Origin: an uncultured Methanosarcinales archaeon | GTDB taxonomy: Archaea; Nanobdellota; Nanobdellia; Woesearchaeales; ARS49 | NCBI GenBank assembly: GCA_964637115.1 | Contig: CAZWVL010000004.1 | Span: forward strand, 1-64,000 | DNA: 64,000 bases | Direction of reading: 5' to 3' | Program-made: the position numbers and the translations under genes | Notes under the pieces: model-generated | Told to the model about the DNA's origin: nothing | The model's input: only the letters and a program-made list of their open reading frames with translations | Databases searched by the model: none | Shown: in pieces, positions 7,507 through 32,729 of the stretch | How positions within the stretch are numbered: the first letter of the stretch is position 1 | Layout: each line of letters begins with the position of its first letter

Positions 7507-8667
7507 ATGGATACTATGAATAAGACATTGTTAGGAATTTTAAGTTTGTTATTTGTGTTTTTGGTCGCGTGTGCTCCTGCACAGGAAATGAAAGCAGAGC
7601 CAAAGGTGGAAGAAAAGAAAGCGGTTGCACCGGCTGAAGTAACATTTGGCTGGATTGGCGCTTTAACTGGTGGTGCGGCTACGATTGGAGAACCAATCAG
7701 GAATGCTGTGGTATTAGCGGTTGAAGAAATTAATGCAAATAATGTAATTCCAGGCAAGAAATTGAATATCATCTACGAAGATGATGCCTGTGATGCGAAG
7801 AATAGCGCAACAGCCGTGCAGAAGTTATCAAATGTTGATAAGGTCACAGCAATTATCGGTCCGATGTGTTCTGGTGCAACACTTGCTGATGCACCAATTA
7901 TAGAGGAAGCAAAGATGTTGACGGTTTCTTATTCCGCAACAAACCCATCAATTAAAGATGCCGGCGACTACTTATTTAGAAACGTTCCTTCTGATAATGG
8001 CCAGGGCGTTCAGGCCGCAGCACTTATTAATAAGCTCGGCTCAAAGAAGATCGCCATTATCCACATCCAGAATGACTGGGGTGTTGGTTTGCTGAAAGTG
8101 TTTAAGTCCGAAGCTGAAAAACTTGGTCTTAAAATTGTCGCGACTGAAACGTACAGTCCTGACGCCACCGACTTCAAAACTCAGTTGGCAAAGATAAAGG
8201 CTGCAAAGCCTGAAACCTTGTACATGTTGTCTCATCCTACAGATGCCGGTATTGTTCTTAAGCAAGCGTCTGAAGCTGGCTTGAAAATACAGATTATTGG
8301 TGCAGATGGATCAAAGGACGACGCAGTAATTTCAGCCGCCGGTGCTGCTGCAGAGGGATTTATTGTAACTCTGCCTGGAGTGCCAAAGTCGTCTGAGCTT
8401 GACAAGTTTGCAACTGCGTACAAGGCTAAGTATGGCAAAGAATTCAGTGCATACACGCCTGAAGCTTACGACGTTGCGTACATTCTTGCCAAGGCTTGTG
8501 CTGCAACTGATTGCACTTCAACTGCTATGAAGGACTACTTGTACAAGATGGGACCGTACACGGGCGCATCTGGAACGTACGAGTTTGACCAGAATGGTGA
8601 AGTCGACAAGCCGTATGATTACTTTACGGTAAAAGACGGCAAGTGGGAAGCATATATTGCCTCCTGA
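7507..8667 (+). CDS. SBP1: branched-chain amino acid-type ABC substrate-binding lipoprotein (LivJ/K, Peripla_BP_6 fold)
   Basis: Lipobox LVAC; GWIGALTGG, AVEEINANN, EDDAC, GPMCSG, SYSAT, DFKTQLAKIK, AYDVA. Confidence 0.93.
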   Translation: MDTMNKTLLGILSLLFVFLVACAPAQEMKAEPKVEEKKAVAPAEVTFGWIGALTGGAATIGEPIRNAVVLAVEEINANNVIPGKKLNIIYEDDACDAKNSATAVQKLSNVDKVTAIIGPMCSGATLADAPIIEEAKMLTVSYSATNPSIKDAGDYLFRNVPSDNGQGVQAAALINKLGSKKIAIIHIQNDWGVGLLKVFKSEAEKLGLKIVATETYSPDATDFKTQLAKIKAAKPETLYMLSHPTDAGIVLKQASEAGLKIQIIGADGSKDDAVISAAGAAAEGFIVTLPGVPKSSELDKFATAYKAKYGKEFSAYTPEAYDVAYILAKACAATDCTSTAMKDYLYKMGPYTGASGTYEFDQNGEVDKPYDYFTVKDGKWEAYIAS

Positions 8668-8711
8668 TTATTTTTTATTTATTTTTTTATTATTAAAATG
8701 GAGGGATACAT

Positions 8712-9827
8712 ATGAAAAAATTGCTTGTAATAACAACGGTCGCATTATTGTTCTTAGTGGCATGTGCTCAGGTTGAGCAAAAGCCGTTCAAAGTTGGTAT
8801 AGTCGCTCCAATGACTGGTCCAAATGCGTGGATTGGAGAATTCGTCGTTGGCTCATTGGAAATTGCAAAAGACGAGCTTAATGCTCAAGGCGGCGTGAAT
8901 GGAAAAGCTGTTGAATTTGTTCTCGAGGACGCTGACAATGCGGCCAAGAGTACAACAGGCACGACAAAACTTATTCAGCAGGATAATGTTGATTTGATAT
9001 ACTCTGTGACAACACCAGTGACTGCCGGTGCAAGCGCGATTGCTGAGCAAAATGGCGTTCCGTTGTTCGGCTTTACGGCTGTTCAGACATTTGCCAAGAA
9101 AAACACTTGGGTGTTCAGCGATTTGCGTGATATTGTTAACGAGTGCACATTGTTGGCGCAGACTGCATTAAAGAACAATCATTTGAAACTTGCGTTTCTC
9201 GGTAATGACGCAGATTTTAGCGTTGAATGCCTTGAGACATTGAAGAAAGAGTTCGTACCAAATGGAGGCACAATTGTTGCGAATGAAATGAAGGTAAGTA
9301 ATGACCCTGATGCACGCACGAGTGTTACCAAGCTGAAGAACGCACAGCCTGATGGTGTTTTACTGTTGTGCTGGCCTCCTGATTGTAATCTTATTTACAA
9401 GCAGATGGTTGAGTTGGACTTTATTCCGCAGTTCTATCTTCCGGTTGGAGCTCCATTGGCTGCTAATCCGGTATCAGTTAAGGATTTAGACAAGAATCGC
9501 ATCCTGAAGAATGCATTTGCGGGCGACCAAGGAGTTTCCGCAGATAACCCTTCACCAGAACTTGCAGCGTTTTTCAGTAAACTCGACGCAAAGCTGAAGA
9601 AGACTATTCGCTATGTTGACGCTGCGGCCGCGTATGATAATATGCACGAAATTGCTGTTGCAGCCGGTAAGTGTCCTGAAATAACGAAGGACTGTTTGCG
9701 TGAAAAACTTGCAGAGACTGATTATACTGGAGTTGCAGGCCACGTTGCATTTGAAGGCAGGCATTTTGCTGCAAGACCCCCGCGCATCATACAATATAAG
9801 GTTGACAAGTGGGTGCCGTACTCATAA
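8712..9827 (+). CDS. SBP2: Liv-type substrate-binding lipoprotein (close paralog of SBP8)
   Basis: Lipobox LVAC; KVGIVAPMTGPNA, ELNAQGGVNG, AAYD. Confidence 0.9.
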   Translation: MKKLLVITTVALLFLVACAQVEQKPFKVGIVAPMTGPNAWIGEFVVGSLEIAKDELNAQGGVNGKAVEFVLEDADNAAKSTTGTTKLIQQDNVDLIYSVTTPVTAGASAIAEQNGVPLFGFTAVQTFAKKNTWVFSDLRDIVNECTLLAQTALKNNHLKLAFLGNDADFSVECLETLKKEFVPNGGTIVANEMKVSNDPDARTSVTKLKNAQPDGVLLLCWPPDCNLIYKQMVELDFIPQFYLPVGAPLAANPVSVKDLDKNRILKNAFAGDQGVSADNPSPELAAFFSKLDAKLKKTIRYVDAAAAYDNMHEIAVAAGKCPEITKDCLREKLAETDYTGVAGHVAFEGRHFAARPPRIIQYKVDKWVPYS

Positions 9828-9828
9828 A

Positions 9829-10239
9829 TTATTTTTCTTTCATTAATTGGCGGACATGCTCGAGTAATTTCCGCTGGCCTTGTTTGAGCAGTTTCTTCTG
9901 TTTTTCTTGAAGTTCTCTTATTCGTGCACCGGCTTGTTGATAATGCATTTCATATATGCGCTTATAAAACACTTCCACGCGCGGGTCACCAACGTTTGGC
10001 CCGGAAAATGTCTTCGTTTTATATTCGCTTACTCCAAGTTCAACCCGAAAACAAAAAGCAGAAATGCAAAAAATAGGATCGCAATCACCAAGTCTGGAAT
10101 CTTTGCTTACCTGAACAGATATGTCTTGATAGGTACCGGTATAAGTAAACTCATTGTTAAAACAATTGTGCCCGTACCTCCATTCTTTCACTTTCTTCCC
10201 AAGCTTCAGAAGCTCGTCCAAGGAGAGTTCGTCGGTCAT
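9829..10239 (-). CDS. Hypothetical protein, 'MTDELSL' family member (136 aa)
   Basis: Begins MTDELSLDELLKLGKKVKEW; ATGA overlap with upstream gene. Confidence 0.75.
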   Translation of the reverse strand: MTDELSLDELLKLGKKVKEWRYGHNCFNNEFTYTGTYQDISVQVSKDSRLGDCDPIFCISAFCFRVELGVSEYKTKTFSGPNVGDPRVEVFYKRIYEMHYQQAGARIRELQEKQKKLLKQGQRKLLEHVRQLMKEK

Positions 10240-10676
10240 TTCAGCATTCTCTTGACATACCTAAGTAATTCCTGAGGGCCTTTTTTGAGTAATTTATTTT
10301 GCTCTTTGTCAATTTCTCTTTGTTTCATTTCAAATTGTTTGCAATACGCTGTCTCCACACTTTCATAAAATAGATAAACCTTTTCATCACCTTTGAATTT
10401 TTTAGGTACAGCGTGCCGATAACGCTTGCTCTCACCTAATTTGACATGACGACAAGAAGCAGAAATACGGTATACTGTTGTACCCAAGGCACATCCATGA
10501 AATGCAGTAATGATTATGCCATTGTATAATCCGGAATATTTAGTATAATTTAAACCCGGATCATCTAAATCGGACAGTTTACCTAAAGATGCATCAACTA
10601 CATCTGAATTTCTGCTCCATTCTTTCACTTTCTTCCCAAGCTTCAGAAGTTCGTCCAAGGAGAGTTGATCGGTCAT
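10236..10676 (-). CDS. Hypothetical protein, 'MTDELSL' family member (146 aa)
   Basis: Begins MTDQLSLDELLKLGKKVKEW; ATGA overlaps at both ends. Confidence 0.75.
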   Translation of the reverse strand: MTDQLSLDELLKLGKKVKEWSRNSDVVDASLGKLSDLDDPGLNYTKYSGLYNGIIITAFHGCALGTTVYRISASCRHVKLGESKRYRHAVPKKFKGDEKVYLFYESVETAYCKQFEMKQREIDKEQNKLLKKGPQELLRYVKRMLK

Positions 10677-11323
10677 TGTGCCAATTCTCTCACCATTTTT
10701 AGAGTTGCTCTTCTGTGTTCTTCTGTTTTCTGTATTAGCTTTTCGTTTTCCTTTTTTACAAAATCATAGAATTTTTCTACTGCACCATTATTGCATCTAT
10801 GGCCGACAATAGTGACTGTGTCAATTTCAGTCCTAACACTATAATAATCATCTCGATATCCGATTTTAAAGGCAACTCCTTGCAGAGCTCCCATGAAAAT
10901 GCCAGTATATTCTCTGTCAGCTCCACGCTTCCATGATTCATACCATTTATCGCATTTTTTTCCAAGATTGATGATGTTATCAACACTTGTTTTTGCATCA
11001 ATTTTGAGAATTTCCCACGCACGTCCGCGTGCTACCATTTCGTGTTTTATTTTTACAGAATGAAAGAAGGCTTCAATTTCAGTATTGCTCTTGTTTTCTT
11101 CATAGGTATCGCGTTCATACTTTCCTAGCTCTGTTTTTTCTAATCTTGCCGAAATTTTATAAACGAAGTGTTCCATCCAATTTGAAGGTGCTAAATCCGT
11201 CCTAAAATCTATTCCTTCGTAATTTCCCTCATAACGAAGGCCTTCACGTATGCGGCTTATCTTCCATTCTTTCACTTTATTCCCAAGCTTCAGAAGTTCG
11301 TCTAAAGAGAGTTGGTCGGTCAT
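10673..11323 (-). CDS. Hypothetical protein, 'MTDELSL' family member with two tandem domains (216 aa)
   Basis: Begins MTDQLSLDELLKLGNKVKEW; second copy starts SVDNIINLGKKCDKW. Confidence 0.75.
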   Translation of the reverse strand: MTDQLSLDELLKLGNKVKEWKISRIREGLRYEGNYEGIDFRTDLAPSNWMEHFVYKISARLEKTELGKYERDTYEENKSNTEIEAFFHSVKIKHEMVARGRAWEILKIDAKTSVDNIINLGKKCDKWYESWKRGADREYTGIFMGALQGVAFKIGYRDDYYSVRTEIDTVTIVGHRCNNGAVEKFYDFVKKENEKLIQKTEEHRRATLKMVRELAQ

Positions 11324-12390
11324 CTGTACAACTCTTCGAATTTGCCATTCTTAACCTGCTTCATTACTTGTTCTTTCTGCGTAATTCTGCCATCATTGTC
11401 AAACGTGATAATGTTAGAAACGCCAGCATAGTCCTTGATTGAGTGCAAATACTGGGAAATCTCGTCTGGTGTTGTTTTTCCATCACGCAAAGCCGTAGCA
11501 ACGAGCATAACTGCGTCATATGCATACGCTGCAGAAGGCGAAGGTGGCAATCCAAACTTCTCAGTGTATTTCTTTGCAAATTCTATTTCACCGGGTCCTT
11601 TCGCAGGATACGGATAAATTGTTCCTTCAATTGATGGATATGCTTGGAGAAGCACCGGATTATCAGTTCCAGAGCTTGAGTACAACGGAATCTTGAGTCC
11701 GAGCTCTTGTGCTTGTTTGCTGAATGCACCTTGGCTTGGATAGAACGCAAAAGGTGCGTACACCGCATTAACATTCAATTCTTTAATTTGTGAAATCACT
11801 GTCTTGAAGTCAGTTTCATCTGGATTTGTTGGGAATTCCTTGACAATTGTCAGTCCTTTTGCTTCATTGACAAAGTTATCACGCATTGACTGCGACCAGT
11901 CATTCAGACTGTAAACGATAGCTACTTTCTTTATGCCGTTTTTCTTCATATATTGTATTTCGGGCATCACTTCTGCCCGCTCCGTGATCCATACGTCAAA
12001 GAAATACGGCGATGGTTGTGGAACAACGCCTGCTGATGGTGATATAATCAGGACTTTTTTCTCGTTTGCAATAGGGCTTGCTACCTGGCCAAACCAGGTT
12101 GGTCCAACAACGACTTTAAGATTATCCACTTCAGCAAGTTTGTTGATTGCTGTAGCCGTACCCTTGAAATCAGTTTTACTATCCTCAACAATTAACTCAA
12201 GAGGCCTTCCATTTATGCCGTTGTGAGCATTAATGTCATCAGCCGCCAGCAGTGCGCCGTTTTTCTCTCCTTCTCCCCAGAACGAAGCCGGGCCGGTGAG
12301 ATGGAATACACCGCCTATTTTGACTGTGTCAGGAGTTGTTTGTATGCAGGCTGCGAGCAATAACAAAATGATAACTGCAATCTTTTTCAT
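11320..12390 (-). CDS. SBP3: Liv-type substrate-binding lipoprotein
   Basis: Lipobox LAAC; KIGGVFHLTGPAS, DINAHNGING, DFKTVISQIK, YAYDAV. Confidence 0.92.
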   Translation of the reverse strand: MKKIAVIILLLLAACIQTTPDTVKIGGVFHLTGPASFWGEGEKNGALLAADDINAHNGINGRPLELIVEDSKTDFKGTATAINKLAEVDNLKVVVGPTWFGQVASPIANEKKVLIISPSAGVVPQPSPYFFDVWITERAEVMPEIQYMKKNGIKKVAIVYSLNDWSQSMRDNFVNEAKGLTIVKEFPTNPDETDFKTVISQIKELNVNAVYAPFAFYPSQGAFSKQAQELGLKIPLYSSSGTDNPVLLQAYPSIEGTIYPYPAKGPGEIEFAKKYTEKFGLPPSPSAAYAYDAVMLVATALRDGKTTPDEISQYLHSIKDYAGVSNIITFDNDGRITQKEQVMKQVKNGKFEELYR

Positions 12391-13514
12391 TTCTGCACCA
12401 TCTCAAACTTGCCATCTTGCACAACTTTCAGCTTGAATCCAGTCTGAACATTGCCTTTTTCATCAAAGCTGAAATTTCCCATGAAGCCATCATAGTTCTT
12501 AACGTTGTTTAGCAGCCAATCATGCACTTTTTCGCCATCATTGCCAACTGCACGTATCGCATCAACCAAAATTCTGACAGTGTCATATGTTGCTGCTGTG
12601 TGGAACGGCACTGCCGGGTCTTTTCCATAGCGTTCTTTGTACTTTGCAAGGAACGCTTTGAATTCAAGTTTGTCAGCGTCGTAATTTGGATCGTAGAAAT
12701 ACACGCCTTCAAGTGCATCGCCTGCTATTGTTTTTGAATTCTCATTGGCAACAGTCGTGAATGTGGTAAACATAGGCGTTTTAAAGCTGAGTTCGCGTGA
12801 TTGTTTGATGAAGTGTGCTCCTGTTGTGCCTAGCTGGCTTAAAATCAGTATTGCATCTGGTTTTTCTCGTTTTACTTTCAAGAGTGTTGTTCTGAAGTCT
12901 TTTGTGTCTGGAATGAATTCTTCATCCAGAACTATTTCTCCGCCTAATTTTTCAAATTCTTTCTTGAAATGGTCGCGTATGTCAATTGTGTACTCTCTTT
13001 GTTCCGTAATTATGGCTGCTTTGGTAAAATTAAACTTCTCGATAAAGTCACGCGCTGGCTGTATTCCAGCTTGTACATCTGCATTTCCTGTTCTGAAGAC
13101 GTATTCTCCTGCATTGTCAATATTGCTTCCGCCTGTAACGGGTGTGATATACACAACTTTTGCTTCATTGACGTATGGCGCAGCTGCCATTGTGTCGTCG
13201 CTGCACGTGCCGCCAATGATTACTTTGACATCATCTACTTCAACTAATTTCTTGATTGCTGTAAGGCCCTGATTTTGCCCGCATTTTGCATCTTCAACAA
13301 CAAATTCAATATTCAAATCAGACGCGAGTTCTTCTGCTGCAAGTTTCGCACTATCCACAATATTCTGTCCAAGAGAAGCAAAATCTCCTGAAAGAATTGT
13401 TGAGATGCCGATTTTCATTAAGGGTTTTTCTACTGGTTTTGTTTCTGTTTGTATTTCTGGTTGTGCACACGCTGCCAATAGTAACAGCATAATAATCGCA
13501 AATACTATTTTCAT
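12387..13514 (-). CDS. SBP4: Liv-type substrate-binding lipoprotein
   Basis: True start MKIVF at 13514 (ATGA overlap); lipobox LAAC; GISTILSGDFA, EDAKC, DFRTTLLKVK, TYDTV. Confidence 0.92.
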   Translation of the reverse strand: MKIVFAIIMLLLLAACAQPEIQTETKPVEKPLMKIGISTILSGDFASLGQNIVDSAKLAAEELASDLNIEFVVEDAKCGQNQGLTAIKKLVEVDDVKVIIGGTCSDDTMAAAPYVNEAKVVYITPVTGGSNIDNAGEYVFRTGNADVQAGIQPARDFIEKFNFTKAAIITEQREYTIDIRDHFKKEFEKLGGEIVLDEEFIPDTKDFRTTLLKVKREKPDAILILSQLGTTGAHFIKQSRELSFKTPMFTTFTTVANENSKTIAGDALEGVYFYDPNYDADKLEFKAFLAKYKERYGKDPAVPFHTAATYDTVRILVDAIRAVGNDGEKVHDWLLNNVKNYDGFMGNFSFDEKGNVQTGFKLKVVQDGKFEMVQK

Positions 13515-13924
13515 TTCCGCCCTTCTGCAATTAAGCATTCTTTTACATTCTTGCACAGTTCGTCAAGCTCCTCTTGATTTTGCACAGCCATACTGCAAGT
13601 GTATGTGACCTTTACACAATCGGGTTCTCGATCTATCCACATTTCTTGAGAACGAGAAGTATTATGTCCTGCTTTTTCAAGGAAGATACGGCGGTTTCCA
13701 ATCAGCAGGCATTCGTTAGCAAGTGCTTCTTCAAAATTTCGCTTGTTGATTACTCGATACATTCCGAGCGTTATGGATCGGCGCTCGTCAAAATACAATA
13801 ACTCAACATTATTATATGGTGTTGAAATTACAAAATGTTCATTAAAGTTATTATGGCGCTTTCCAACATTCTCCCACTTGCCCCAGAATTTTTCCATGCT
13901 TTTTTCAAGGTTGATTTCTGTCAT
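13511..13924 (-). CDS. Hypothetical protein, 'MTEI' pair member (137 aa)
   Basis: ATGA overlaps at both ends; ends LCKNVKECLIAEGRK. Confidence 0.7.
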   Translation of the reverse strand: MTEINLEKSMEKFWGKWENVGKRHNNFNEHFVISTPYNNVELLYFDERRSITLGMYRVINKRNFEEALANECLLIGNRRIFLEKAGHNTSRSQEMWIDREPDCVKVTYTCSMAVQNQEELDELCKNVKECLIAEGRK

Positions 13925-14280
13925 TTTCTTTCCTCCGCCATCACTTTTTTGATGTCTCTGCAGAGTTTTGTTAGGTAAGTTTGAGAAGAAACTTGAATGT
14001 GATACACATTCCTTAACCCACTACGATCATTAAATCCCATCGTATATAAGTTTCTGATATCATATCCACGTTTTCTAAGAACATTAATACGATCCAATTC
14101 CTTACCTAAATCATGTTTTTTAAATAGAACTATAACAGATAGTTCTAATTCTCTGACGTTATCATAGTAACAAATAGTTGTACGGGCGTTTATGTCATAT
14201 GCACCAGATCCCTGAATATACCCATGGAAATGTTTCCTAAACACGTCCTTTATAGATTCGTCAAAGCTGATTTCTGTCAT
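13921..14280 (-). CDS. Hypothetical protein, 'MTEI' pair member (119 aa)
   Basis: Start at 14280 overlaps the SBP5 stop (ATGA); ends LCRDIKKVMAEERK. Confidence 0.7.
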   Translation of the reverse strand: MTEISFDESIKDVFRKHFHGYIQGSGAYDINARTTICYYDNVRELELSVIVLFKKHDLGKELDRINVLRKRGYDIRNLYTMGFNDRSGLRNVYHIQVSSQTYLTKLCRDIKKVMAEERK

Positions 14281-15365: not shown

Positions 15366-15367
15366 CT

Positions 15368-16444: not shown

Positions 16445-16445
16445 T

Positions 16446-17528: not shown

Positions 17529-17529
17529 T

Positions 17530-19698: not shown

Positions 19699-19735
19699 TT
19701 CCACCACCTATGTTCAGTAGTGACATGAAACTAAT

Positions 19736-19783: not shown

Positions 19784-19826
19784 AAAGAAAAGGTTTAAAT
19801 ATAAGCCATTGCATCGACGATGTAAT

Positions 19827-22444: not shown

Positions 22445-22623
22445 CGTTCTCCTTCAGAAGCTTGTTTACGGCAAATTCTACAAAATGAGACTTGTTGCGA
22501 AAAGCCCCGTTTTGTAGTTTTTCCTCTACCTGCTTGATGGTATTCTCGTCTATGGATATGCTGACTTTGACCTTCATACGGGGTAGTAAGAATTGCCACC
22601 TTTATAAACCTTTCTCTTTTTAG

Positions 22624-22673: not shown

Positions 22674-22817
22674 ATGAAACAGTTCATAATCACCAAGAAG
22701 ATTGCCAAGCACGGCTCTCAGGCTATTATTGTAGTTCCGAGAGTTCTTGAATCTTATCTAAAGCCAAAGACGTTGGTAAAATTGACGATTGACGTGTTGG
22801 AGGAGCCAGATGAATAA
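22674..22817 (+). CDS. 47-aa AbrB-like/DUF2080-like microprotein (absent from ORF track)
   Basis: MKQFIITKKIAKHGSQAIIVVPRVLESYLKPKTLVKLTIDVLEEPDE; swapped-hairpin pattern KxxKxGxxxxIxVP; overlaps the next start. Confidence 0.7.
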   Translation: MKQFIITKKIAKHGSQAIIVVPRVLESYLKPKTLVKLTIDVLEEPDE

Positions 22818-25526: not shown

Positions 25527-26415
25527 GCGTTTGCCCCATCATTCTTACTATTAATTCTGTCATCTCCCGCAAAAAGCGCAGGACATATGTCTCCTTTGCC
25601 GATTTAGTGCTGTTTAGTTTTCTATCGATTTCAAAAGCAATGCTGTCACGCTCTTTTGCGAGTGCAGCTGCTGCTTCATACGAGAATTCATAGAATAATC
25701 CTTCAAATTTCTTGAAAAGGCGCTGTATTCGGTCATAGAGGGCAATTACCGATGATTCTAATACAACCTTGTTTTTGGTGATATAGCCGGTCAGCAGCTT
25801 GTATTCGTCGCCAAGCTGCTCAAGAAGCATAACAACAGCATACATGACTGGAGTCTTCGAATATTCCGGATACCCATATTTGTTTAGAATACGAAAACAA
25901 TGGTCCGTTACCCTGTTTATGTTGGCTTCCATATCCTCAAGATAGGCGAGGTCTGTTTCTTTTCGTTTTAAGGTTTGAAGGCTTTCGTCAGCTACGGCGC
26001 TTATCATGAAAAATACCCGCCGAAGTATTGGGTCGAATGCGTTTTCAGACACACCCGAAATATCTTTGATGATAAGATAATTTTTGCCTTGCTGGATTAC
26101 TTCCATTCCTATCATTTCCCTGACGCGCTGCTGAATGAGTCTTGCCTTGTTTAACGAGTCAAACTTCACTTCCAGTTCATCAACGCCTTCCAAGTATTTT
26201 GCAGCAACAATTCTTTTGAGCAAATTGTCAAGCTTGCTTAGATCAATGGTCTCCCGCATATGCTTGGGAACGGTTGGCGGGGTCATTACAAGCGTCGTAT
26301 CTTTCTCTTCCAGTTCTATTTCATCACCCGCTTTCAGATTAAGCTTCTTTGTCCACTTGGCAGGCAGTGAAATAGTCAGTGTTGCCGCTCCCTGCTTGAT
26401 TATCTTGCGTCGCAT
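25513..26415 (-). CDS. AbrB/SpoVT-domain, PhoU-like transcriptional regulator (copy 2)
   Basis: MRRKIIKQGAATLTISLPAKW..AGDEIELEE; EANINRVTDHCFRIL and LEQLGDEY PhoU-like motifs; start at 26415. Confidence 0.82.
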   Translation of the reverse strand: MRRKIIKQGAATLTISLPAKWTKKLNLKAGDEIELEEKDTTLVMTPPTVPKHMRETIDLSKLDNLLKRIVAAKYLEGVDELEVKFDSLNKARLIQQRVREMIGMEVIQQGKNYLIIKDISGVSENAFDPILRRVFFMISAVADESLQTLKRKETDLAYLEDMEANINRVTDHCFRILNKYGYPEYSKTPVMYAVVMLLEQLGDEYKLLTGYITKNKVVLESSVIALYDRIQRLFKKFEGLFYEFSYEAAAALAKERDSIAFEIDRKLNSTKSAKETYVLRFLREMTELIVRMMGQTLTLA

Positions 26416-26455
26416 ATCGTCGATAGTCGCTTTCAAGTATATAAATTTTGCCTTT

Positions 26456-26507
26456 AGAATATAAGAATATGCTAGAATATATTCTATATGAAAAAAGAAT
26501 ATATTTC
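26456..26507. promoter_or_regulatory. Operator-like array: four AGAATAT copies including the perfect palindrome TAGAATATATTCTA
   Basis: AGAATAT at 26456, 26464, 26474, 26496; 14-bp palindrome at 26473-26486; lies between divergent regulator 2 and the third SBP operon. Confidence 0.6.
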
Positions 26508-26552
26508 CGATAAGTTGTCACTTGTAGAGTAAGACAAGATTTGGGTGGTAAA

Positions 26553-26972
26553 ATGAACAAAAGAAACGATAACGGTCATGTCAAATATTCACCGGATGCT
26601 TCATTAGTTAACAAGCTCAAGGTTGGAGATCATTATACTGAGATTTGGCAAGGTTTGCCCGATCACCCATTCGAGCCTTCTGCAACAACAGGTGGCAAGT
26701 CAGGCTTAAAGTATGAAACAAATGATAAATACGTCTGGGTTACGCCAAATACTGCTCGTGCACTGGAACAAAATCCGGATGAAATTCTGTATGCCAGTAT
26801 TAAGAAATCTAAAGACAAAGAGTATTGCGCCAGATGGGTAGAATCCATCAGCGGAACTTCCTTTGGAAATACTCTTGAAAGTGCTATTTCTCGAGCTCAA
26901 GAACTGAATATCGAAGAGTTACATAACAGAATCGAGAAGGATCGAAGAAAGAAATTGGAGGCCAAAAAATGA
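26553..26972 (+). CDS. Hypothetical protein; C-terminal half HicB-like
   Basis: YCARWVESISGTSFGNTLESAISRAQE resembles the HicB GxTxEEA pattern; ATGA overlap with SBP9. Confidence 0.5.
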   Translation: MNKRNDNGHVKYSPDASLVNKLKVGDHYTEIWQGLPDHPFEPSATTGGKSGLKYETNDKYVWVTPNTARALEQNPDEILYASIKKSKDKEYCARWVESISGTSFGNTLESAISRAQELNIEELHNRIEKDRRKKLEAKK

Positions 26973-28054
26973 AAACAGCAATAATTGCAATTCTAGTGCT
27001 GTTTCTAGCAGCATGCGTGCAAATAGAAGAAACAAAGCCATTCAAATTAGGTGCACCACTGCCTTTGACTGGCTCAAATGCGTTCTATGGCGACTTTACA
27101 AAGTATGGTATAGAGCTTGCTGTTGAAGACATTAACAAAGCAGGCGGAATCAATGGTAGAACAGTCCAGGTTATCTATGAAGATACTGCTGGAGATAAGA
27201 CAAAAGCCACAACCGCGGCACAGAAGCTGATTCACATCGATGGTGTGGACGCTCTTATTACCTCCACGACTCCGATGAGCGGTGCGATTTCTCCGGTTGC
27301 TGAAGAGAACCGCATTCCGTTAATTTATGCTTCTGCAACAAATTCATTCACTATAAACAAAACGTATGTTTTCAAAGATTATACAGATGCAGCCGGCATC
27401 TGTGAGCTTCTGATGAAACAGGTGAAAAAGGATGGGCATGAAAAAGTGGCCGTCTTTGGTACTGATGCTGAATTTACTCAGCTTTGTAAGAAAGGAGCAG
27501 AAAAAGTTGGAAAACTCAACTCATTTGAGGTTTATCCTGGCGGCGAAACTGATTTCAAAACACAGTTTGCCAAGATTAAGAATGCTGAAAACACTGCTTT
27601 GATTCTTTCGGTGTTCGCTGGAGATTGCCCGCATGCGTACAAGCAGATTCGCGAACTTGGGTTGAAGGCAAAATTGTACACAGCTTTCCAGAGTTTTGCG
27701 TGCGGCAGTGCCGACAACACAAAAGCAAATGCCGACTTGCTTGAGGGCGCATATGGTGCTGATGTTGCTTTAGATGAAGAAAGCGATGATCCTGATTTTC
27801 TCGCTTTTAAGAAGCGCCTTGATGAAAGAGGCTGGACTACGCAAATTCGCGGAAGCGCCATTATGTACGATAGCACAATGGAATTCGCAAAAGCCTTCCA
27901 GGATTGCCAAGATGCTCTTTGTGTAGCCAATAATCTCAGAGCTCTGCAGATGAATGGAATTTCTGGACACATCAGTTATGGTGGAGACCAGATTGTTGAG
28001 CGCGAAATAATGTTGGTGAAATACGAAAACGGCAAATGGAGGAAAGTACAATGA
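26969..28054 (+). CDS. SBP9: Liv-type substrate-binding lipoprotein (paralog of SBP5)
   Basis: Lipobox LAAC; KLGAPLPLTGSNAFYG, EDINKAGGINGR, DFKTQFAKIK. Confidence 0.92.
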   Translation: MKTAIIAILVLFLAACVQIEETKPFKLGAPLPLTGSNAFYGDFTKYGIELAVEDINKAGGINGRTVQVIYEDTAGDKTKATTAAQKLIHIDGVDALITSTTPMSGAISPVAEENRIPLIYASATNSFTINKTYVFKDYTDAAGICELLMKQVKKDGHEKVAVFGTDAEFTQLCKKGAEKVGKLNSFEVYPGGETDFKTQFAKIKNAENTALILSVFAGDCPHAYKQIRELGLKAKLYTAFQSFACGSADNTKANADLLEGAYGADVALDEESDDPDFLAFKKRLDERGWTTQIRGSAIMYDSTMEFAKAFQDCQDALCVANNLRALQMNGISGHISYGGDQIVEREIMLVKYENGKWRKVQ

Positions 28055-29145
28055 AAACGGCAATATTCACAATAATTGCATTGCTGCTTTTGGCAGCGTG
28101 CGCAACGCAAGAATCAGTACAAACAACGCCTATTGCAAAAGAACCGGCAGTTGTCAAGATTGGGGTAACAGTGCCATTGACTGGTGATGTTGCATTCTTA
28201 GGAGAAGCAACGCGAAATTCCCTCGAATTGGCATTAAAAGAAGTGCAGGGAACAAAATACAAGTACGAGCTTGTGTTTGAAGATGACAAGCTTGATGCAA
28301 AACTGGCTTCCACAACTGCAACTAAATTGATTCAAGTTGACAATGTTGATGCAATCATCAGTTTGAGCTCTGGCACGGGGAATGTAGTTACCCCTCTTGC
28401 CGAGCAGAATAAGGTAATTCACTTTGGCATTGCTTCTGATGCAAATGTTGCAAAAGGAATGTTCAATTTCATCCATTGGACGCCGCCTGATGAGGAAGCT
28501 CGTTTATGGGTGCAAAAAGCACAGGAACATGGCTATAATCGCGTCGCAATTATTGTATTGCAGCATCCAGGTGCAATAGCAGTGGTTGATGCTGCAAAGA
28601 AACACGCAAAAGGTACCGACATCGAACTACATGAGGAGTTCTTTAATCCGGGCGAGAAGGATTTCAGAACAGTTCTGGTCAGGTCCAAGCAATTTAATCC
28701 TGATGCTTATATGCTCATGGCGTTCTCTCCTGAACTTGACATATTGCACAAGCAGTTGAAGGAATTAGGCATTAAGGCACCTTTGACATCCATCGAGGCA
28801 TTCGAACTTAGCAATGACCCTTCTCAGTTTGAAGGTCACTGGTATGTCAACGCTGCAGACCCGACAGGCGCATTTGCTGACAAGTATAAGGCTGCGTACA
28901 ACAAAGAGCCGGTATTTGGCGGACCAAATGCATACGACATCTTCAAGATGATCGTGAAAGGCTTTGAGGATTCAGGCAAAGATGCATCTGTAAAACCTTC
29001 ACCTGAAGAAGTTGCTGCTGCACTTATGCAGATAAAGGACTTCGATGGTGCACTGGGCAAATTGACTGTCGGCGAAGATGGTATTGTCTGGAGCCCGGCA
29101 GTTGTCAGAACGATTCTGAACGGCAAGCCGGTGACTATCAAATAG
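28051..29145 (+). CDS. SBP10: Liv-type substrate-binding lipoprotein
   Basis: Start MKTAIF at 28051 (ATGA overlap); lipobox LAAC; KIGVTVPLTGDVA, DFRTVLVRSK, NAYDIF. Confidence 0.92.
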   Translation: MKTAIFTIIALLLLAACATQESVQTTPIAKEPAVVKIGVTVPLTGDVAFLGEATRNSLELALKEVQGTKYKYELVFEDDKLDAKLASTTATKLIQVDNVDAIISLSSGTGNVVTPLAEQNKVIHFGIASDANVAKGMFNFIHWTPPDEEARLWVQKAQEHGYNRVAIIVLQHPGAIAVVDAAKKHAKGTDIELHEEFFNPGEKDFRTVLVRSKQFNPDAYMLMAFSPELDILHKQLKELGIKAPLTSIEAFELSNDPSQFEGHWYVNAADPTGAFADKYKAAYNKEPVFGGPNAYDIFKMIVKGFEDSGKDASVKPSPEEVAAALMQIKDFDGALGKLTVGEDGIVWSPAVVRTILNGKPVTIK

Positions 29146-29170: not shown

Positions 29171-29557
29171 ATGACTGACGAACTTTCTTTGGAAGAAGTA
29201 ATTGCTTTGGGATGTAAAGTAAGACCATGGAGCAAGAACAAAGACGAAGAAGATGAAGATGGCTATGTCGGTTGTTACAAAGGAGTTCATATAAGCGTTT
29301 CCCGTCATCGATTGTTTATTGGAGAAGACTCTTTTGTATCATACAATCTGAAGATTGAATATAAAGGCACAACAATAGGAGAATTTTTTTATCAGGCGTT
29401 TGACCATTCATCTGCAAGAAATAGAGATGATGTTATGAAGTTCTATAAATTTGCCAAGTCACAAAATGAACAAGAATATATCGCAAGGGTATGTGATCGT
29501 AACAGAGAAAAGCGATTTGAAGGAACCGTGAACTATGTGCGTGGTTTGTTAAAATAA
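29171..29557 (+). CDS. Hypothetical protein, divergent 'MTDELSL' family member (128 aa)
   Basis: MTDELSLEEVIALGCKVRPW...YVGCYKGV...VMKFYKF. Confidence 0.72.
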   Translation: MTDELSLEEVIALGCKVRPWSKNKDEEDEDGYVGCYKGVHISVSRHRLFIGEDSFVSYNLKIEYKGTTIGEFFYQAFDHSSARNRDDVMKFYKFAKSQNEQEYIARVCDRNREKRFEGTVNYVRGLLK

Positions 29558-29603: not shown

Positions 29604-30476
29604 ATGGGCATCGCAACGCAGTTAATATTGAACGGTATCATTGCGGGCGCCATATACGCGTTGGTTGCGTCTGGGTTCTCATTAATCTACTCTGTTACCA
29701 AATTTATGCATTTGGCGCACGGTGGAGTGTTGGCGTTAGGCGCCTATCTTATGTACACTTTCGCTGTTGCAAGTGGATTGAACTTCTGGTTTGCCATTCT
29801 GCTGACATTAATCTGCAGCAGCGTTGCAGGAGAATTGATGAATTGGTTGGTCTACAAGCCTTTGAGAAAACGTAAGGCTTCTGGTGCAGTATTATTAATA
29901 GCAAGCATTGCTGTATTAATATTCGTTAACTCGTTGATTCTCGCCGTCTGGGGTGCTGATGTGAAGACCATTCACACCAGAAACCCTGTTTTTGACTTTA
30001 TTGGTGCCAGAATCACTTTTATTCAAGTCACAATCATTATTGTCTCTGTAATTCTTCTTTTATGCTTGTGGTATTTGATGAAAAAAACAAAATTGGGCAA
30101 GGCAATGCGTGCTGTTGCTGACAACAAGGATGTTGCGCAGACTGTTGGCATTAATCCAGAGAGAATTTACACATATACTTTCCTTATTGGCAGTTTTTTG
30201 GCTGGTGTTGCCGGAATTCTTATTGGAATCGAACAGAATTTGTTTCCAACAATGGGCCTTTCATTAGTTATTAAGGGATTTACTGGTGCAGTTATTGGCT
30301 CTTTGGCATCTGTTCCTGGCGCAGTATTGGGCTCATTCATTCTTGGTCTGGTGGAAAACATCGGCATCTGGTGGCTTCCGTCTGGTTACAAGGATGCAAT
30401 TGCCTTCGTATTATTGTTCATTTTCCTCTTATTCAGGCCTTCCGGCCTATTGGGCGTTAAAGTGAGGGAGGCTTAA
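29604..30476 (+). CDS. livH: Branched-chain amino acid ABC permease LivH
   Basis: GAIYALVASGFSLIY, HLAHG, TKLGKAMRAVADN, GINP. Confidence 0.95.
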   Translation: MGIATQLILNGIIAGAIYALVASGFSLIYSVTKFMHLAHGGVLALGAYLMYTFAVASGLNFWFAILLTLICSSVAGELMNWLVYKPLRKRKASGAVLLIASIAVLIFVNSLILAVWGADVKTIHTRNPVFDFIGARITFIQVTIIIVSVILLLCLWYLMKKTKLGKAMRAVADNKDVAQTVGINPERIYTYTFLIGSFLAGVAGILIGIEQNLFPTMGLSLVIKGFTGAVIGSLASVPGAVLGSFILGLVENIGIWWLPSGYKDAIAFVLLFIFLLFRPSGLLGVKVREA

Positions 30477-31333
30477 TGGCATTTGTAAATTATCTGATTC
30501 ATCTTGGAATTTTGGCGGCAATTTATAGTATTCTCACAATTAGTTTGAACTGGGCTGTTGGTTTTACTGGCTTGCTTAATCTTGGCCATGTTGGATTTTT
30601 TGGTATCGGCGCTTATGTGAGCGCTCTATTAGCTATTAATGGTGTCCCTGTCTGGATTAGTATTATTATTGGCGGTCTTGCAGGCTTGATTGCTGGTTTC
30701 TTGCTTTCCCTGCCTACTTCAAGGTTGAAAGGTGATTATCTTGCTCTGGCAACGCTTGGTTTTTCGTTTATCATGGGAAGTATTGCAAGAAACTGGACTG
30801 ATGTTACAAGAGGCGCGTTAGGTATTCCTGGCATTCCTAAGATTGTGAGAGGTAATACAGAGTTTCTCGTCGTTGTTTTGATTGTTGCAGTTATTACTTA
30901 TTTCATCTTCTGGAAATTATCGCGTTCAAGATTTGGAAAGACGTGTGAAGCAGTTAGAGATGACGAATTGGCTGCAAGAATGCTTGGAAAAAATACTTTT
31001 ATGACGAAAATTATGGCTTTGGGCATTAGTGCGTTTTTTGCCGGCATTGCTGGAGGTTTATTTGCGCATTACATTACTTTTATCGACCCGTCTATTTTCG
31101 GTATTGATGACTTGATTTTACTTTTCAGCATGTTGATTGTGGGCGGTCTTGCCAGTGTGAAAGGCGCTGCTTTCGGCACGATTATTATTTTCTTGATTCC
31201 TGAGCCTTTGCGCTTTATCGGCTTCCCCAGTTCTGTGCTTGGTCCAATGCGTGCAATTATCTACGCGTTAATCTTGTTATTAATCCTTATCTATAAGCCA
31301 AGAGGCTTATTTGGGAAGGTGGATTTGGCATGA
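30476..31333 (+). CDS. livM: Branched-chain amino acid ABC permease LivM
   Basis: GFTGLLNLGHVGFFGIGAY, RLKGDYLALATLGF, SRFGKTCEAVRDDE, VGGLAS. Confidence 0.95.
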   Translation: MAFVNYLIHLGILAAIYSILTISLNWAVGFTGLLNLGHVGFFGIGAYVSALLAINGVPVWISIIIGGLAGLIAGFLLSLPTSRLKGDYLALATLGFSFIMGSIARNWTDVTRGALGIPGIPKIVRGNTEFLVVVLIVAVITYFIFWKLSRSRFGKTCEAVRDDELAARMLGKNTFMTKIMALGISAFFAGIAGGLFAHYITFIDPSIFGIDDLILLFSMLIVGGLASVKGAAFGTIIIFLIPEPLRFIGFPSSVLGPMRAIIYALILLLILIYKPRGLFGKVDLA

Positions 31334-32013
31334 TTAGCGTGCAAAAATTGGACAAACATTTTGGTGGAGTTTATGCAGTTCATAATTGCAGCTTCACAGT
31401 TAAAGACAATACAATCACGAGTATTATCGGCCCGAACGGCGCCGGTAAAACAACGTTGTTCAATCTTATCTGTGGCATTATCAAGCCGGATGCTGGCAGC
31501 ATTTTCTTGAAGGGCCAGGAGATTACTGACCTTCCAACATACCGCATTGCTCGTTCTGGTATTAGCAGAACGTTCCAACAGGCAAGATTGTTCAAAAATA
31601 TGTCAGTAAAGGACAATTTGTTGTTAGCAAAGCAGACAACCGATGCAGAATTAAAGGAAATACTAAAAAAAGTGCGTTTTCCTCTTGATATAAACACAAA
31701 AGCAAGCGAACTGAGCTACGGCCAAACGAGATTAGTGGAAATTGCTAGAGCATTACTTAAACCTCACAAATTATTAATGCTTGACGAGCCTACTGCTGGC
31801 GTGAATCCAAAAGTCCGCCAGGAATTGAAAGAAATTCTTCTAAATCTCAAAAAGGAAGGCAATACTATTGTGCTGATCGAGCACGATATGGAATTCGTGA
31901 TGAGTATTAGTGATGATGTTATTGTGATGACAGAAGGTACTGTGTTGACAAGAGGAACGCCTAAACAAGTTCAATCTGACAAGCGTGTTTTGGAGGCATA
32001 TCTAGGCAAATGA
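31330..32013 (+). CDS. livG: Branched-chain amino acid ABC ATPase LivG
   Basis: GPNGAGKTTLFN, ISRTFQ, LSYGQ, LDEPTAGVNP, IEHDM. Confidence 0.95.
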   Translation: MISVQKLDKHFGGVYAVHNCSFTVKDNTITSIIGPNGAGKTTLFNLICGIIKPDAGSIFLKGQEITDLPTYRIARSGISRTFQQARLFKNMSVKDNLLLAKQTTDAELKEILKKVRFPLDINTKASELSYGQTRLVEIARALLKPHKLLMLDEPTAGVNPKVRQELKEILLNLKKEGNTIVLIEHDMEFVMSISDDVIVMTEGTVLTRGTPKQVQSDKRVLEAYLGK

Positions 32014-32729
32014 GCTTCCTTACTGTGAAGAATTTGGAATCCGGATATGGAAAATTGCAGATTTTGTTTGGCGTAAATATGGACATTAAGCCGGACGAGA
32101 TTACGGTCATTATTGGCCCTAATGGTGCAGGTAAGAGCACTGTGCTGAAGAGTATTTTCAAGTTGAATGACATTTACAGCGGCCAAATAATCTACAAGGG
32201 CAAGGATATTACTAACTTGCCAACTTACGAGCGTATTCAGATGGGCATTTCTATTGTGCCACAGGGCAGGCAAGTGTTTTCAGGTCTTACAATCAAAGAA
32301 AATTTGGAAATGGGCGCTTTTATGACAAAAGATAAAGACTTGATTCAGAAGCGCATGGATGAAGTTCTGTCTCATTTCCCTGCTCTTAAAGAAAAACTGC
32401 ATCAAAATGCTTATAGTTTGTCCGGCGGCCAGCAACAGATGCTCGCTATTGCAAGAGGATTGATGCAAGACCCTCAAGTTCTTCTGCTAGACGAACCTTC
32501 TTTAGGTCTGGCACCTAAGACTATGAAGGAAATATTCGAAAAAATCCAGGAAATCAACAAAGAAGGCACTGCCATCATCATGGTCGAGCAGAATGCCAAG
32601 GCAGCGTGTGAGATTGCCGACCATATTTACGTTCTAGAAGAAGGCAGAGTTGCCTTGCACGGTGACAAGAAAATAATGAAATCAGAAAAAATCAAGCATA
32701 TTTATCTTGGCGGGCACGGGCATAAATAA
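32010..32729 (+). CDS. livF: Branched-chain amino acid ABC ATPase LivF
   Basis: GPNGAGKST, VPQGRQVF, LSGGQQQML, LDEPSLGLAP, VEQNA. Confidence 0.95.
   Translation: MSFLTVKNLESGYGKLQILFGVNMDIKPDEITVIIGPNGAGKSTVLKSIFKLNDIYSGQIIYKGKDITNLPTYERIQMGISIVPQGRQVFSGLTIKENLEMGAFMTKDKDLIQKRMDEVLSHFPALKEKLHQNAYSLSGGQQQMLAIARGLMQDPQVLLLDEPSLGLAPKTMKEIFEKIQEINKEGTAIIMVEQNAKAACEIADHIYVLEEGRVALHGDKKIMKSEKIKHIYLGGHGHK

What the first reader, a model, noticed from the sequence alone, without database searches (positions are those of the whole stretch)
7507..32729. ~25-kb scavenging/sensing island: 10 binding proteins, a porin-like protein, 2 receptor-like kinases, 2 regulators and unknown cassettes around one LivHMGF transporter
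Between glyS and rfcL nearly every gene belongs to one layout. Operon A (+) is SBP1-2. Operon B (-) has 12 closely spaced or overlapping genes headed by a beta-barrel-like protein. A central kinase module is bracketed by two AbrB-PhoU paralogs. Operon C (+) is SBP9-10, followed by livHMGF. The coupling and orientation are seen directly. Canonical Liv systems use one or two binding proteins (LivJ/LivK in E. coli). That the block is one co-regulated nutrient-capture and signalling system in a reduced, probably host-dependent archaeon is inference.
Basis: partly seen in the sequence, partly recalled or inferred. Interest (0 to 1): 0.82.

Follow-up and report, generated by a model that had tools for sequence, protein, structure and literature searches.

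The report
Binding-protein array with kinase cassettes
A tiny-genome Woesearchaeota archaeon has packed ten different nutrient-binding proteins, two sensor-kinase/regulator cassettes and a protein predicted to fold like a bacterial outer-membrane pore around its only Liv-type ABC importer. The layout recurs in relatives and gives a testable picture of how such cells may sense and scavenge nutrients.

Summary
Window 7507-32729 holds ten Peripla_BP_6 binding proteins, all with a lipobox, and one LivHMGF importer. It also holds a Hanks-type and an APH-type single-pass membrane kinase, two AbrB-family regulators, a porin-like protein and orphan small proteins.

The genome (1.27 Mb, 98% complete) has 16 such binding proteins but only one LivHM pair. 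The locus between glyS and rfcL is syntenic in relatives. It ranges from one binding protein (G006) to about ten plus two kinase/regulator pairs in another genus (G021).

The cassette with the porin-like barrel also occurs far from any binding-protein gene, usually in front of methyltransferases. Barrel-plus-binding-protein operons were seen only here and in G003.

Co-regulation, shared use of the importer and the barrel's role are inferences. This scan had already noted the same kinase/regulator/barrel cassette on other DPANN DNA. What is new here is its wiring to a Liv binding-protein array.

The parts
7507..8667 (+). SBP1: lipobox Peripla_BP_6 binding protein. It is the one closest to E. 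coli LivJ.
   Evidence: Pfam E 7e-62. PDB match to 1Z15 LivJ at E 3e-32. It keeps LivJ Ser79 and Thr102, with Tyr202 changed to His and Glu226 to Asp.
8712..9827 (+). SBP2: lipobox binding protein, 70% identical to SBP3.
9829..11323 (-). Three tandem genes (136, 146 and 216 aa, the last with two domains) of the signal-less 'MTDxLSLDELLKLG' small-protein family.
   Evidence: Alignment A5. Only 7 hits among 5.8 billion clusters. AF2 pLDDT 83, with no clear fold match. Gene junctions are 4-nt overlaps.
11320..13556 (-). SBP8 and SBP7: lipobox binding proteins.
   Evidence: Pfam E 2e-57 and 4e-55. SBP7 has an 85%-identical ortholog in G003 and a 65%-identical one in G021.
13511..14295 (-). Two small orphan genes (137 and 124 aa), a second small-protein type.
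   Evidence: No Pfam or NCBIfam family. Only a weak relative in G003.
14277..18648 (-). SBP6, SBP5, SBP4 and SBP3: lipobox binding proteins.
   Evidence: Pfam. SBP6 and SBP9 are 55% identical. SBP4 has an 84%-identical ortholog in G003, with dN/dS 0.09.
18658..19707 (-). Porin-like beta-barrel protein: first gene of operon B, with a Sec signal peptide and a C-terminal ...EF.
   Evidence: AF2 model has 22 strands, pLDDT 60.7. Foldseek top hit is VDAC1 at E 1.7e-4. VIA gives Z 10-14, all to membrane barrels. The strands have alternating hydrophobic faces and there is no Cys. 30 of 42 family members end in Phe.
19809..20738 (+). AbrB1: AbrB-N-terminal regulator with a PhoU-like tail. It is divergent from the barrel operon and convergent with the kinase.
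   Evidence: PF04014 at 29.7 bits. 90% identical in G003. Atlas neighbours carry PF04014 plus PF01895 (run on the paralog AbrB2).
20684..22444 (-). STK586: Hanks-type Ser/Thr kinase with one TM segment (333-353) and a C-terminal ectodomain of about 230 aa.
   Evidence: Pkinase E 3e-32. His150, Asp152, Asn157 and Asp171 are invariant in A6. TM segment.
22431..22577 (-). RHH48: 48-aa ribbon-helix-helix-like gene overlapping the STK586 start by 14 nt.
   Evidence: RHH_1 at E 0.014, below the cut-off. Conserved ahead of the kinase in G003 (71%) and G268 (42%). dN/dS 0.15.
22674..22817 (+). AbrB47: 47-aa AbrB-like small gene.
   Evidence: It is 52-96% identical to small genes that lie directly ahead of the kinase in G003, G008, G010, G021, L025 and L028. 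dN/dS 0.08. The AbrB likeness rests on the sequence pattern only; Pfam gives no hit.
22789..23334 (+). u181: 181-aa protein with no family, lying between AbrB47 and the APH kinase.
   Evidence: No Pfam or NCBIfam hit. 84% identical in G003.
23331..25526 (+). APH731: APH-fold kinase with one TM segment (457-478) and a C-terminal ectodomain of about 250 aa.
   Evidence: PF01636 at 42.7 bits against a cut-off of 23.2. The HGDLHPGN motif is in the sequence. A relative sits beside an AbrB2-like gene in G021.
25513..26436 (-). AbrB2: second AbrB-type regulator. It is convergent with APH731 and divergent from operon C.
   Evidence: PF04014 at 36.1 bits. Atlas score 0.96 to archaeal clusters carrying MazE_antitoxin plus PhoU.
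26474..26507 (.). Perfect palindrome AGAATATATTCT plus a repeat AGAATATATTTC in the AbrB2|operon C intergenic region. The same 12-mer occurs at 7471-7482, upstream of SBP1.
   Evidence: The 9-mer occurs 5 times in the window against 0.55 expected, and all five lie in the island. The 12-mer also lies between the SBP10-like and AbrB genes of G010. The 9-mer is not enriched genome-wide.
26541..26972 (+). sm143: orphan 143-aa first gene of operon C.
   Evidence: No family found.
26969..29145 (+). SBP9 and SBP10: lipobox binding proteins.
   Evidence: Pfam E 3e-51 and 8e-41. SBP10 has orthologs in G010 (63%) and G021 (55%).
29171..29557 (+). sm128: fifth member of the MTDxLSL small-protein family.
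29604..32729 (+). livH, livM, livG and livF: the only HAAT-type ABC importer found in the genome.
   Evidence: Pfam. A single LivHM pair by tblastn and by PF02653.

Best explanation
The island is an expandable array of substrate-binding proteins built around the cell's only Liv-type (HAAT) ABC importer, at a fixed chromosomal site between glyS and rfcL.

Ten lipid-anchored binding proteins have old, diversified binding pockets. They most likely each deliver a different small solute to the one LivHMGF translocator. SBP1 probably binds amino acids; the ligands of the others are unknown.

Two copies of a DPANN-specific signalling cassette are inserted in the array. Each cassette has a small RHH or AbrB-like protein, a single-pass membrane kinase with an outside sensor domain, and a convergent AbrB-type (PhoU-like) DNA-binding regulator. 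Each regulator gene is divergent from one large binding-protein operon.

The likely logic is as follows. The kinase ectodomain senses an outside cue, the kinase phosphorylates the AbrB-type regulator or the small DNA-binding protein, and this switches the adjacent operon.

One cassette brings its usual companion, a secreted porin-like beta-barrel, as the first gene of the six-binding-protein operon. The barrel's role is open.

Shown: gene content, lipoboxes, single transporter, synteny, cassette conservation, purifying selection. Inferred: sharing of the transporter, ligand diversity, phosphorylation, regulation, barrel location.
For: Single importer, many binding proteins:
- The genome (98% complete) has one LivHM pair for 16 SBPs.
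- The same one-pair rule holds in all 12 relatives that have Liv, with 1 to 39 SBPs each.

Diversified, lipid-anchored binding proteins:
- SBPs are 20-35% identical to each other except for three pairs. Residues at the LivJ ligand positions differ in nearly every paralog.
- Orthologs of five SBP types are shared with G021 in another genus.
- All ten island SBPs have a lipobox. The genome has bacterial-type Lgt and LspA.

Synteny of the glyS...rfcL locus:
- It is shared with G006, G003, G010, G008 and G021.

Cassette conservation:
- Kinase and AbrB genes are convergent in every case seen.
- A small AbrB-like or RHH gene lies directly ahead of the kinase in G003, G008, G010, G021, G268, L025 and L028.

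Cis element and precedent:
- A shared 12-mer and palindrome lie in the promoter regions beside AbrB2 and SBP1, and in G010.
- B. subtilis Hanks kinases phosphorylate AbrB (PMC6213207).

Selection:
- dN/dS is 0.06-0.23 for the 11 island genes compared with G003, including both small ORFs.
Against: - No expression, binding or transport data exist.
- The barrel cassette has non-SBP cargo in most genomes, and even in congeners G012 and G010. Linkage of barrel and SBPs is therefore recent and narrow.
- G006 manages with one or two SBPs and no cassette at the locus.
- The 9-mer core of the motif is not enriched genome-wide (22 found, 24 expected). It overlaps AT-rich promoter sequence and could be part of a TATA-like box.
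- The PhoU domain is not confirmed by Pfam, NCBIfam or PDB sequence searches.
- Pocket mapping at about 25% identity depends on an uncertain alignment.
Confidence: 0.6

Rival explanations
1. Insertion hot spot. The glyS-rfcL interval is a variable region where accessory genes pile up (SBP paralogs, signalling cassettes, orphan small genes, toxin-antitoxin pairs). Co-location would then reflect where DNA lands, not a common function or regulation.
For: - Content differs strongly between congeners: 1 SBP in G006, 4 in G003, 10 here.
- A relative (L043) has a PIN-RHH pair in the same interval.
- The kinase-AbrB-barrel module is found elsewhere with unrelated cargo.
- The small-protein family is nearly confined to this species group.
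Against: - Kinase/AbrB cassettes recur beside Liv SBPs in at least five genomes of two genera.
- Genes are joined by 4-nt overlaps into long operons.
- SBP orthologs are kept at the locus across genera.
- All 11 genes compared with G003 are under purifying selection.
Confidence: 0.2
2. Sensor array. Some or many of the binding proteins act mainly as ligand sensors that dock on the ectodomains of the two membrane kinases. Bacterial SBPs activate adjacent sensor kinases in this way. The island would then be chiefly a chemosensory device and only secondarily an uptake device.
For: - SBP genes flank both kinases.
- The kinase ectodomains have no recognisable ligand-binding domain of their own.
- There are bacterial precedents for SBP-activated kinases encoded next to their SBP gene (PMC11113362).
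Against: - No test of contact between SBPs and kinases was run.
- The same kinase family sits beside methyltransferase operons with no SBP in other genomes, so its ectodomain cannot depend on SBPs in general.
Confidence: 0.12
3. Outer-membrane pipeline. The barrel is a true porin in a second, outer membrane of this archaeon. The operon then mirrors the Gram-negative route from porin to periplasmic binding protein to ABC importer.
For: - The fold matches only membrane barrels.
- The family has Sec signal peptides, a C-terminal Phe in 30 of 42 members and alternating hydrophobic strands.
- The barrel gene is translationally close (9 nt) to the first SBP gene.
Against: - The family was found in only 3 of 401 sampled genomes of the phylum and in 4 of the 15 genomes of the genus (G000 included). 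That is too rare for an essential envelope component.
- No Omp85/BamA was found in the genome.
- The SBPs are lipid-anchored, as in single-membrane cells.
- The model's confidence is only moderate (pLDDT 60.7).
Confidence: 0.08

Closest known systems
LivJ/LivK-LivHMGF (HAAT family, TC 3.A.1.4) of E. coli and relatives
   Same: It has two BPD_transp_2 permeases, two ABC ATPases and Peripla_BP_6 binding proteins. More than one binding protein is predicted to share one translocator. SBP1 matches LivJ (1Z15) at E 3e-32.
   Different: There are ten binding proteins at the locus and 16 in the genome, against two in E. coli. The pockets are diversified and the proteins are lipid-anchored. The host is an archaeon with a 1.27-Mb genome, and kinase/regulator cassettes are interleaved.
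Lineage-specific over-representation of orphan binding proteins, for example the Bug/TTT family of Bordetella and Rhodoplanes (PMC5994714)
   Same: Many binding-protein paralogs face very few membrane components. The presumed gain is a wider ligand range per transporter.
   Different: The transporter class differs (ABC versus TTT). The setting is a small archaeal genome. The genes are clustered in operons at the transporter locus rather than scattered.
Hanks-type kinases acting on AbrB in Bacillus subtilis (PrkC, PrkD, YabT; PMC6213207)
   Same: A membrane Ser/Thr kinase is paired with an AbrB-fold DNA-binding regulator.
   Different: Here the pair is a fixed convergent gene couple with a third small DNA-binding gene. 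The regulator carries a long PhoU-like tail, and one copy uses an APH-fold kinase. No phosphorylation is shown.
Bacterial outer-membrane porins and mitochondrial VDAC
   Same: The predicted structure is a large antiparallel beta-barrel. The protein has a signal peptide, a C-terminal Phe and no cysteines.
   Different: There is no sequence family match, the host is an archaeon with no BamA found, and the family is rare and tied to a kinase/regulator cassette.
PhoU-PhoR-PstSCAB signalling in bacteria
   Same: A PhoU-like protein, a sensor kinase and an SBP-dependent ABC importer are encoded together.
   Different: The PhoU-like part is fused to a DNA-binding domain. The kinase is a Ser/Thr or APH type, not a histidine kinase. 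The PhoU assignment itself is weak.

Membership tests
HAAT (Liv-type) ABC importer | Two BPD_transp_2 permease subunits and two ABC ATPases in one operon | tested here: met
   PF02653 E 7e-47 and 2e-45; PF00005 E 4e-36 and 1e-34; BCA_ABC_TP_C present on LivG
HAAT (Liv-type) ABC importer | Cognate type-I (Peripla_BP_6) binding protein | tested here: met
   Ten proteins score above the Pfam cut-off
HAAT (Liv-type) ABC importer | LivJ residues that hold the amino acid's carboxylate and amino groups (Ser79, Thr102, Tyr202, Glu226) | tested here: inconclusive
   SBP1 has Ser, Thr, His and Asp at these positions. The other 15 SBPs differ at most of them, but the alignments are at about 25% identity
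HAAT (Liv-type) ABC importer | Binding proteins dock on and drive this translocator | not testable with these tools
   Needs proteoliposome transport or ATPase assays
Bacterial-type lipoproteins | Lipobox cysteine after the signal peptide, plus Lgt and LspA in the genome | tested here: met
   Lipobox in 10 of 10 SBPs; Lgt E 2e-75 and LspA E 8e-33
Outer-membrane beta-barrel proteins (porins) | Closed antiparallel transmembrane beta-barrel fold | tested here: inconclusive
   The model has 22 strands. All top matches are membrane barrels (VIA Z 10-14, Foldseek E 1.7e-4), but pLDDT is 60.7 and pTM 0.54
Outer-membrane beta-barrel proteins (porins) | Signal peptide and C-terminal aromatic beta-signal | tested here: met
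   AFA|QD cleavage site; the terminal Glu-Phe is invariant in A1; 30 of 42 family members end in Phe
Outer-membrane beta-barrel proteins (porins) | Omp85/BamA insertion machinery in the same genome | tested here: not met
   PF01103 was not found in G000 (98% complete), while it was found in 7 control bacteria
Outer-membrane beta-barrel proteins (porins) | Sequence membership of a described porin family | tested here: not met
   No porin family hit for any of the 42 members
Hanks-type Ser/Thr protein kinases | Pkinase domain with the catalytic HRD Asp, the Asn and the DFG-position Asp | tested here: met
   PF00069 at 112 bits; His150, Asp152, Asn157 and Asp171 invariant
APH / eukaryotic-like kinase fold | PF01636 domain with the HxDxxxxN catalytic loop | tested here: met
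   42.7 bits against a cut-off of 23.2; the HGDLHPGN motif is in the sequence
AbrB-PhoU archaeal regulators | N-terminal AbrB/SpoVT swapped-hairpin domain | tested here: met
   PF04014 at 29.7 and 36.1 bits against a cut-off of 24.7
AbrB-PhoU archaeal regulators | C-terminal PhoU domain (PF01895) | tested here: inconclusive
   No hit in Pfam, NCBIfam or PDB, whether by single sequence or by profile. Atlas neighbours score 0.96, and 26-41% of their members carry PF01895
Type II toxin-antitoxin (small RHH/AbrB antitoxin plus kinase toxin, HipBA-like) | Small DNA-binding gene overlapping a compact cytosolic toxin gene | tested here: not met
   The overlap is present, but the kinases are 586-731-aa membrane proteins with ectodomains and have a fixed third partner, the AbrB-type regulator

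The most novel reading that the evidence does not exclude
The porin-like barrel is exported and inserts into a partner cell's membrane, or into an outer envelope layer, to let small solutes leak out. The co-transcribed array of lipid-anchored binding proteins captures these solutes for the single importer. The receptor kinase/AbrB cassette switches the whole operon on when a partner is sensed. This would be a 'tap and capture' feeding device of an episymbiotic archaeon, and the first functional beta-barrel membrane pore known from Archaea.
Probability: 0.1. Interest if true: 0.9.

Novelty: new variant of a known kind. Interest (0 to 1): 0.6.

Why it matters
Woesearchaeota and other DPANN archaea have tiny genomes, cannot make most building blocks and are almost all uncultured. 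How they sense and take up nutrients is largely unknown.

This locus shows that one lineage devotes over 1% of its genes to binding proteins for one importer. That suggests a cheap way to widen the diet. The lineage also places Ser/Thr-type receptor kinase cassettes next to these genes, which gives concrete candidates for environmental or partner sensing.

The associated porin-like barrel family has bacterial OMP hallmarks but sits in genomes where no BamA was found. It bears on whether archaea can make and use transmembrane beta-barrels.

All parts are small, soluble or refoldable proteins, so they can be tested without cultivating the organism.

Tried and rejected
- Complex prediction of the kinase domain (1-330) with AbrB1 returned 'no answer'. 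It counts neither for nor against binding.
- PhoU assignment was sought by Pfam, NCBIfam, PDB phmmer and a 14-sequence profile against PDB. There were no hits.
- The small-protein family was sought in Pfam, NCBIfam, the Atlas (best score 0.83) and by fold search. Foldseek gave a best E of 0.19. VIA gave a best Z of 6.1, below its background. The structure atlas gave TM of at most 0.44. Only a vague cystatin/NTF2-like resemblance came out.
- The two kinase ectodomains are not similar to each other.
- The AGAATATAT 9-mer was tested as a genome-wide operator and rejected: 22 sites against 24 expected. Only the local 12-mer and palindrome remain as a lead.
- The four other AbrB-type paralogs of the genome are not next to recognisable kinases or SBPs.
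- No Rfam RNA lies in the island.
- A toxin-antitoxin reading of the small gene plus kinase was considered and set aside (see membership test).

Full report
WHAT IS THERE. The window is contig C4:1-64000 of a 1.27-Mb, 27-contig genome that is 98% complete. Earlier notes of this scan call it Woesearchaeota. I did not test the taxon myself, but the nearest Atlas clusters of its regulators are archaeal and mostly Woesearchaeota.

Pfam confirms every named component of the finding:
- ten Peripla_BP_6 binding proteins (SBPs)
- livHMGF
- a Pkinase protein of 586 aa
- an APH-family kinase of 731 aa
- two 307-309-aa proteins with an AbrB/MazE N-terminus
- glyS and an RFC-like gene as flanks

All ten SBPs carry a lipobox. 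The genome encodes bacterial-type Lgt and LspA, and Lgt was found in 39 of 41 related genomes. The SBPs are therefore probably lipid-anchored on the cell surface.

Operon B is 12 genes with junctions of -46 to +9 nt, mostly 4-nt overlaps. Oligo-T tracts follow SBP1 and SBP10. These could act as partial archaeal terminators and give more SBP than transporter transcript; that is inference.

ONE IMPORTER, MANY BINDING PROTEINS. tblastn and Pfam searches of the whole genome find 16 SBPs, six of them outside the island, but a single LivH/LivM pair.

Among 41 relatives, 12 have Liv. Each has exactly one permease pair, with 1 to 39 SBPs. In a sample of 301 genomes of the phylum, 40 have any such SBP. 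About six have large expansions, and these lie in four different families (the expansion counts are first-look candidates).

The SBPs are old paralogs. Pairwise identity is 20-35%, except SBP2/SBP3 at 70%, SBP6/SBP9 at 55%, and one pair outside the island at 47%. I mapped the LivJ ligand residues through the SBP1-1Z15 alignment. Only SBP1 keeps the Ser79/Thr102 anchor with conservative changes at Tyr202 and Glu226. The other paralogs differ at most pocket positions, with the caveat that the alignments are at low identity.

Liv genes in Woesearchaeota are known to be patchy (PMC11606122). Over-representation of binding proteins relative to membrane parts is known for TTT/Bug systems (PMC5994714).

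SYNTENY. The glyS...rfcL interval is a fixed site with variable filling:
- G006 has glyS-SBP-livHMGF-rfcL.
- G003, the closest relative, has glyS, SBP, SBP, a small protein, SBP7 (85%), SBP4 (84%), barrel (60%), AbrB1 (90%), kinase (86%), RHH48, AbrB47, u181, livHMGF and rfcL.
- G008 and G010 have AbrB47, a Pkinase and an AbrB regulator next to SBPs and liv.
- G021, from another genus and with 39 SBPs, has about ten SBPs between livH and glyS. It also has an AbrB47/APH-like kinase/AbrB2-like set and a second AbrB2-like gene beside a 711-aa unknown. Its orthologs of SBP7, SBP2, SBP10, SBP1 and SBP4 are 48-65% identical.

Claims about G010 rest on an unpublished genome.

THE SIGNALLING CASSETTE. 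RHH48 (22431-22577, -) overlaps the start of the Hanks kinase. AbrB47 (22674-22817, +) precedes u181 and the APH kinase. Both are conserved and under purifying selection, with dN/dS of 0.15 and 0.08.

In all loci examined, the kinase and the 300-aa AbrB-type gene are convergent, and a small RHH or AbrB-like gene lies directly ahead of the kinase.

Both kinases have one central hydrophobic segment and a 230-250-aa C-terminal part with no known domain. The two ectodomains are unrelated to each other. The catalytic residues of the Hanks kinase are invariant.

The 'central kinase module' is thus two copies, in Hanks and APH flavours, of one three-gene cassette. Each AbrB-type gene faces one large SBP operon across a short AT-rich spacer of about 100 bp. 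Hanks kinases phosphorylate AbrB in B. subtilis (PMC6213207), which gives a mechanistic precedent. Nothing is shown here.

A perfect palindrome AGAATATATTCT and a repeat AGAATATATTTC lie in the AbrB2|operon C spacer. The same 12-mer lies 25 nt upstream of SBP1, and also in the AbrB|SBP spacer of G010. The 9-mer core is not enriched genome-wide, so this is only a lead for an operator.

THE PORIN-LIKE PROTEIN. The 349-aa first gene of operon B has a Sec signal peptide and no cysteine. Its strands have alternating hydrophobic faces, and its terminal Glu-Phe is invariant.

AlphaFold gives 22 antiparallel strands (pLDDT 60.7, pTM 0.54). Foldseek and VIA-align return only membrane barrels such as VDAC, SusC, BtuB, MOMP, OccD and maltoporin, with VIA Z of 10-14.

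An exhaustive profile search finds only 46 representative clusters. None has a porin or other informative Pfam family, and 30 of 42 end in Phe. The family was found in 3 of 401 sampled genomes of the phylum and in 4 of the 15 genomes of the genus, G000 included. No Omp85/BamA was found in the genome.

In 9 of 11 informative contexts the barrel gene sits next to the AbrB/kinase pair. This includes very distant members and a genome of another family, G268. What follows the barrel is usually methyltransferases, KAS-III or radical-SAM genes, and this holds even in congeners G012 and G010. SBPs follow it only here and in G003.

The barrel therefore belongs to the cassette, not to the Liv system. 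Its junction to an SBP operon is a recent cargo swap. It evolves faster than its neighbours (61% against 81-90% identity to G003) but is still constrained, with dN/dS 0.13.

THE SMALL PROTEINS. Five genes (136, 146, 216, 128 aa, plus one in G003) form a signal-less family with the N-terminus MTDxLSLDELLKLG. Only seven members exist among 5.8 billion clusters, with weak tandem relatives in G028. A relative's glyS-side region carries a similar string of small genes before an SBP.

The AlphaFold model is confident (pLDDT 83): a helix, a four-strand meander and long C-terminal helices. It has no convincing structural relative. Their role is unexplained. The 137-, 124- and 143-aa genes and u181 are likewise unassigned.

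VERDICT. The island is a real, selected, syntenic concentration of uptake and signalling genes at the only Liv importer, and the kinase/regulator cassettes are repeatedly linked to SBP arrays. It is nevertheless a mosaic of separable modules, and common regulation, shared transporter use and the barrel's function are inferred.

The scan had already described the kinase/AbrB-PhoU/porin-like cassette on other DPANN DNA. My independent searches agree with those notes. What this window adds is the cassette wired to a binding-protein array.

I rate it a new variant of known kinds: a Liv/HAAT system with extreme SBP multiplicity, and Ser/Thr kinase signalling to an AbrB-type regulator. It contains an unexplained and potentially important porin-like family.

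Noticed in passing
G000:C2:146481-147194 and G000:C8:19989-20372 (outside the window): Bacterial-type lipoprotein enzymes Lgt (E 2e-75) and LspA (E 8e-33) are present in this archaeon. Lgt was found in 39 of 41 related genomes, but in none of the three archaeal control genomes.
   Followed up: partly
window 32730-32891 (-): An unannotated 53-aa ORF with two hydrophobic segments (MAKKFPTFGVILLVIGVVW...) lies tail-to-tail with livF in the 204-bp gap before rfcL.
   Followed up: no
G021 (whole genome; locus L054-L056): A related genus has 39 Peripla_BP_6 matches (44 first-look candidates) in 1.4 Mb, with a single LivHM pair. G231 has 36 candidates. These are extreme binding-protein expansions for such small genomes.
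   Followed up: partly
L043 3488-4153 (GCA_973527055.1): A PIN/RHH toxin-antitoxin pair is inserted between two SBP genes in the equivalent glyS-side region of a relative. This hints that the interval accepts mobile modules.
   Followed up: no
L060 (G028:C30) 8075-15709: Ten tandem paralogous genes of about 250 aa with overlapping junctions are flanked by arrays of small proteins distantly like the MTDxLSL family.
   Followed up: no
L066 (G000:C6) 4608-7145: Another AbrB-type paralog of this genome is convergent with a 529-aa protein. That protein has the size and position of the cassette kinases but matches only pentapeptide repeats. It may be a degenerate or different sensor partner.
   Followed up: no
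window 8668-8711 and 29146-29170: Long oligo-T tracts follow directly after SBP1 and SBP10. They are possible archaeal termination signals inside the presumed operons.
   Followed up: no
L055 16267-17028 (G021): A TrmB-family regulator lies among the SBP genes of the G021 island. It has no counterpart in this window.
   Followed up: no
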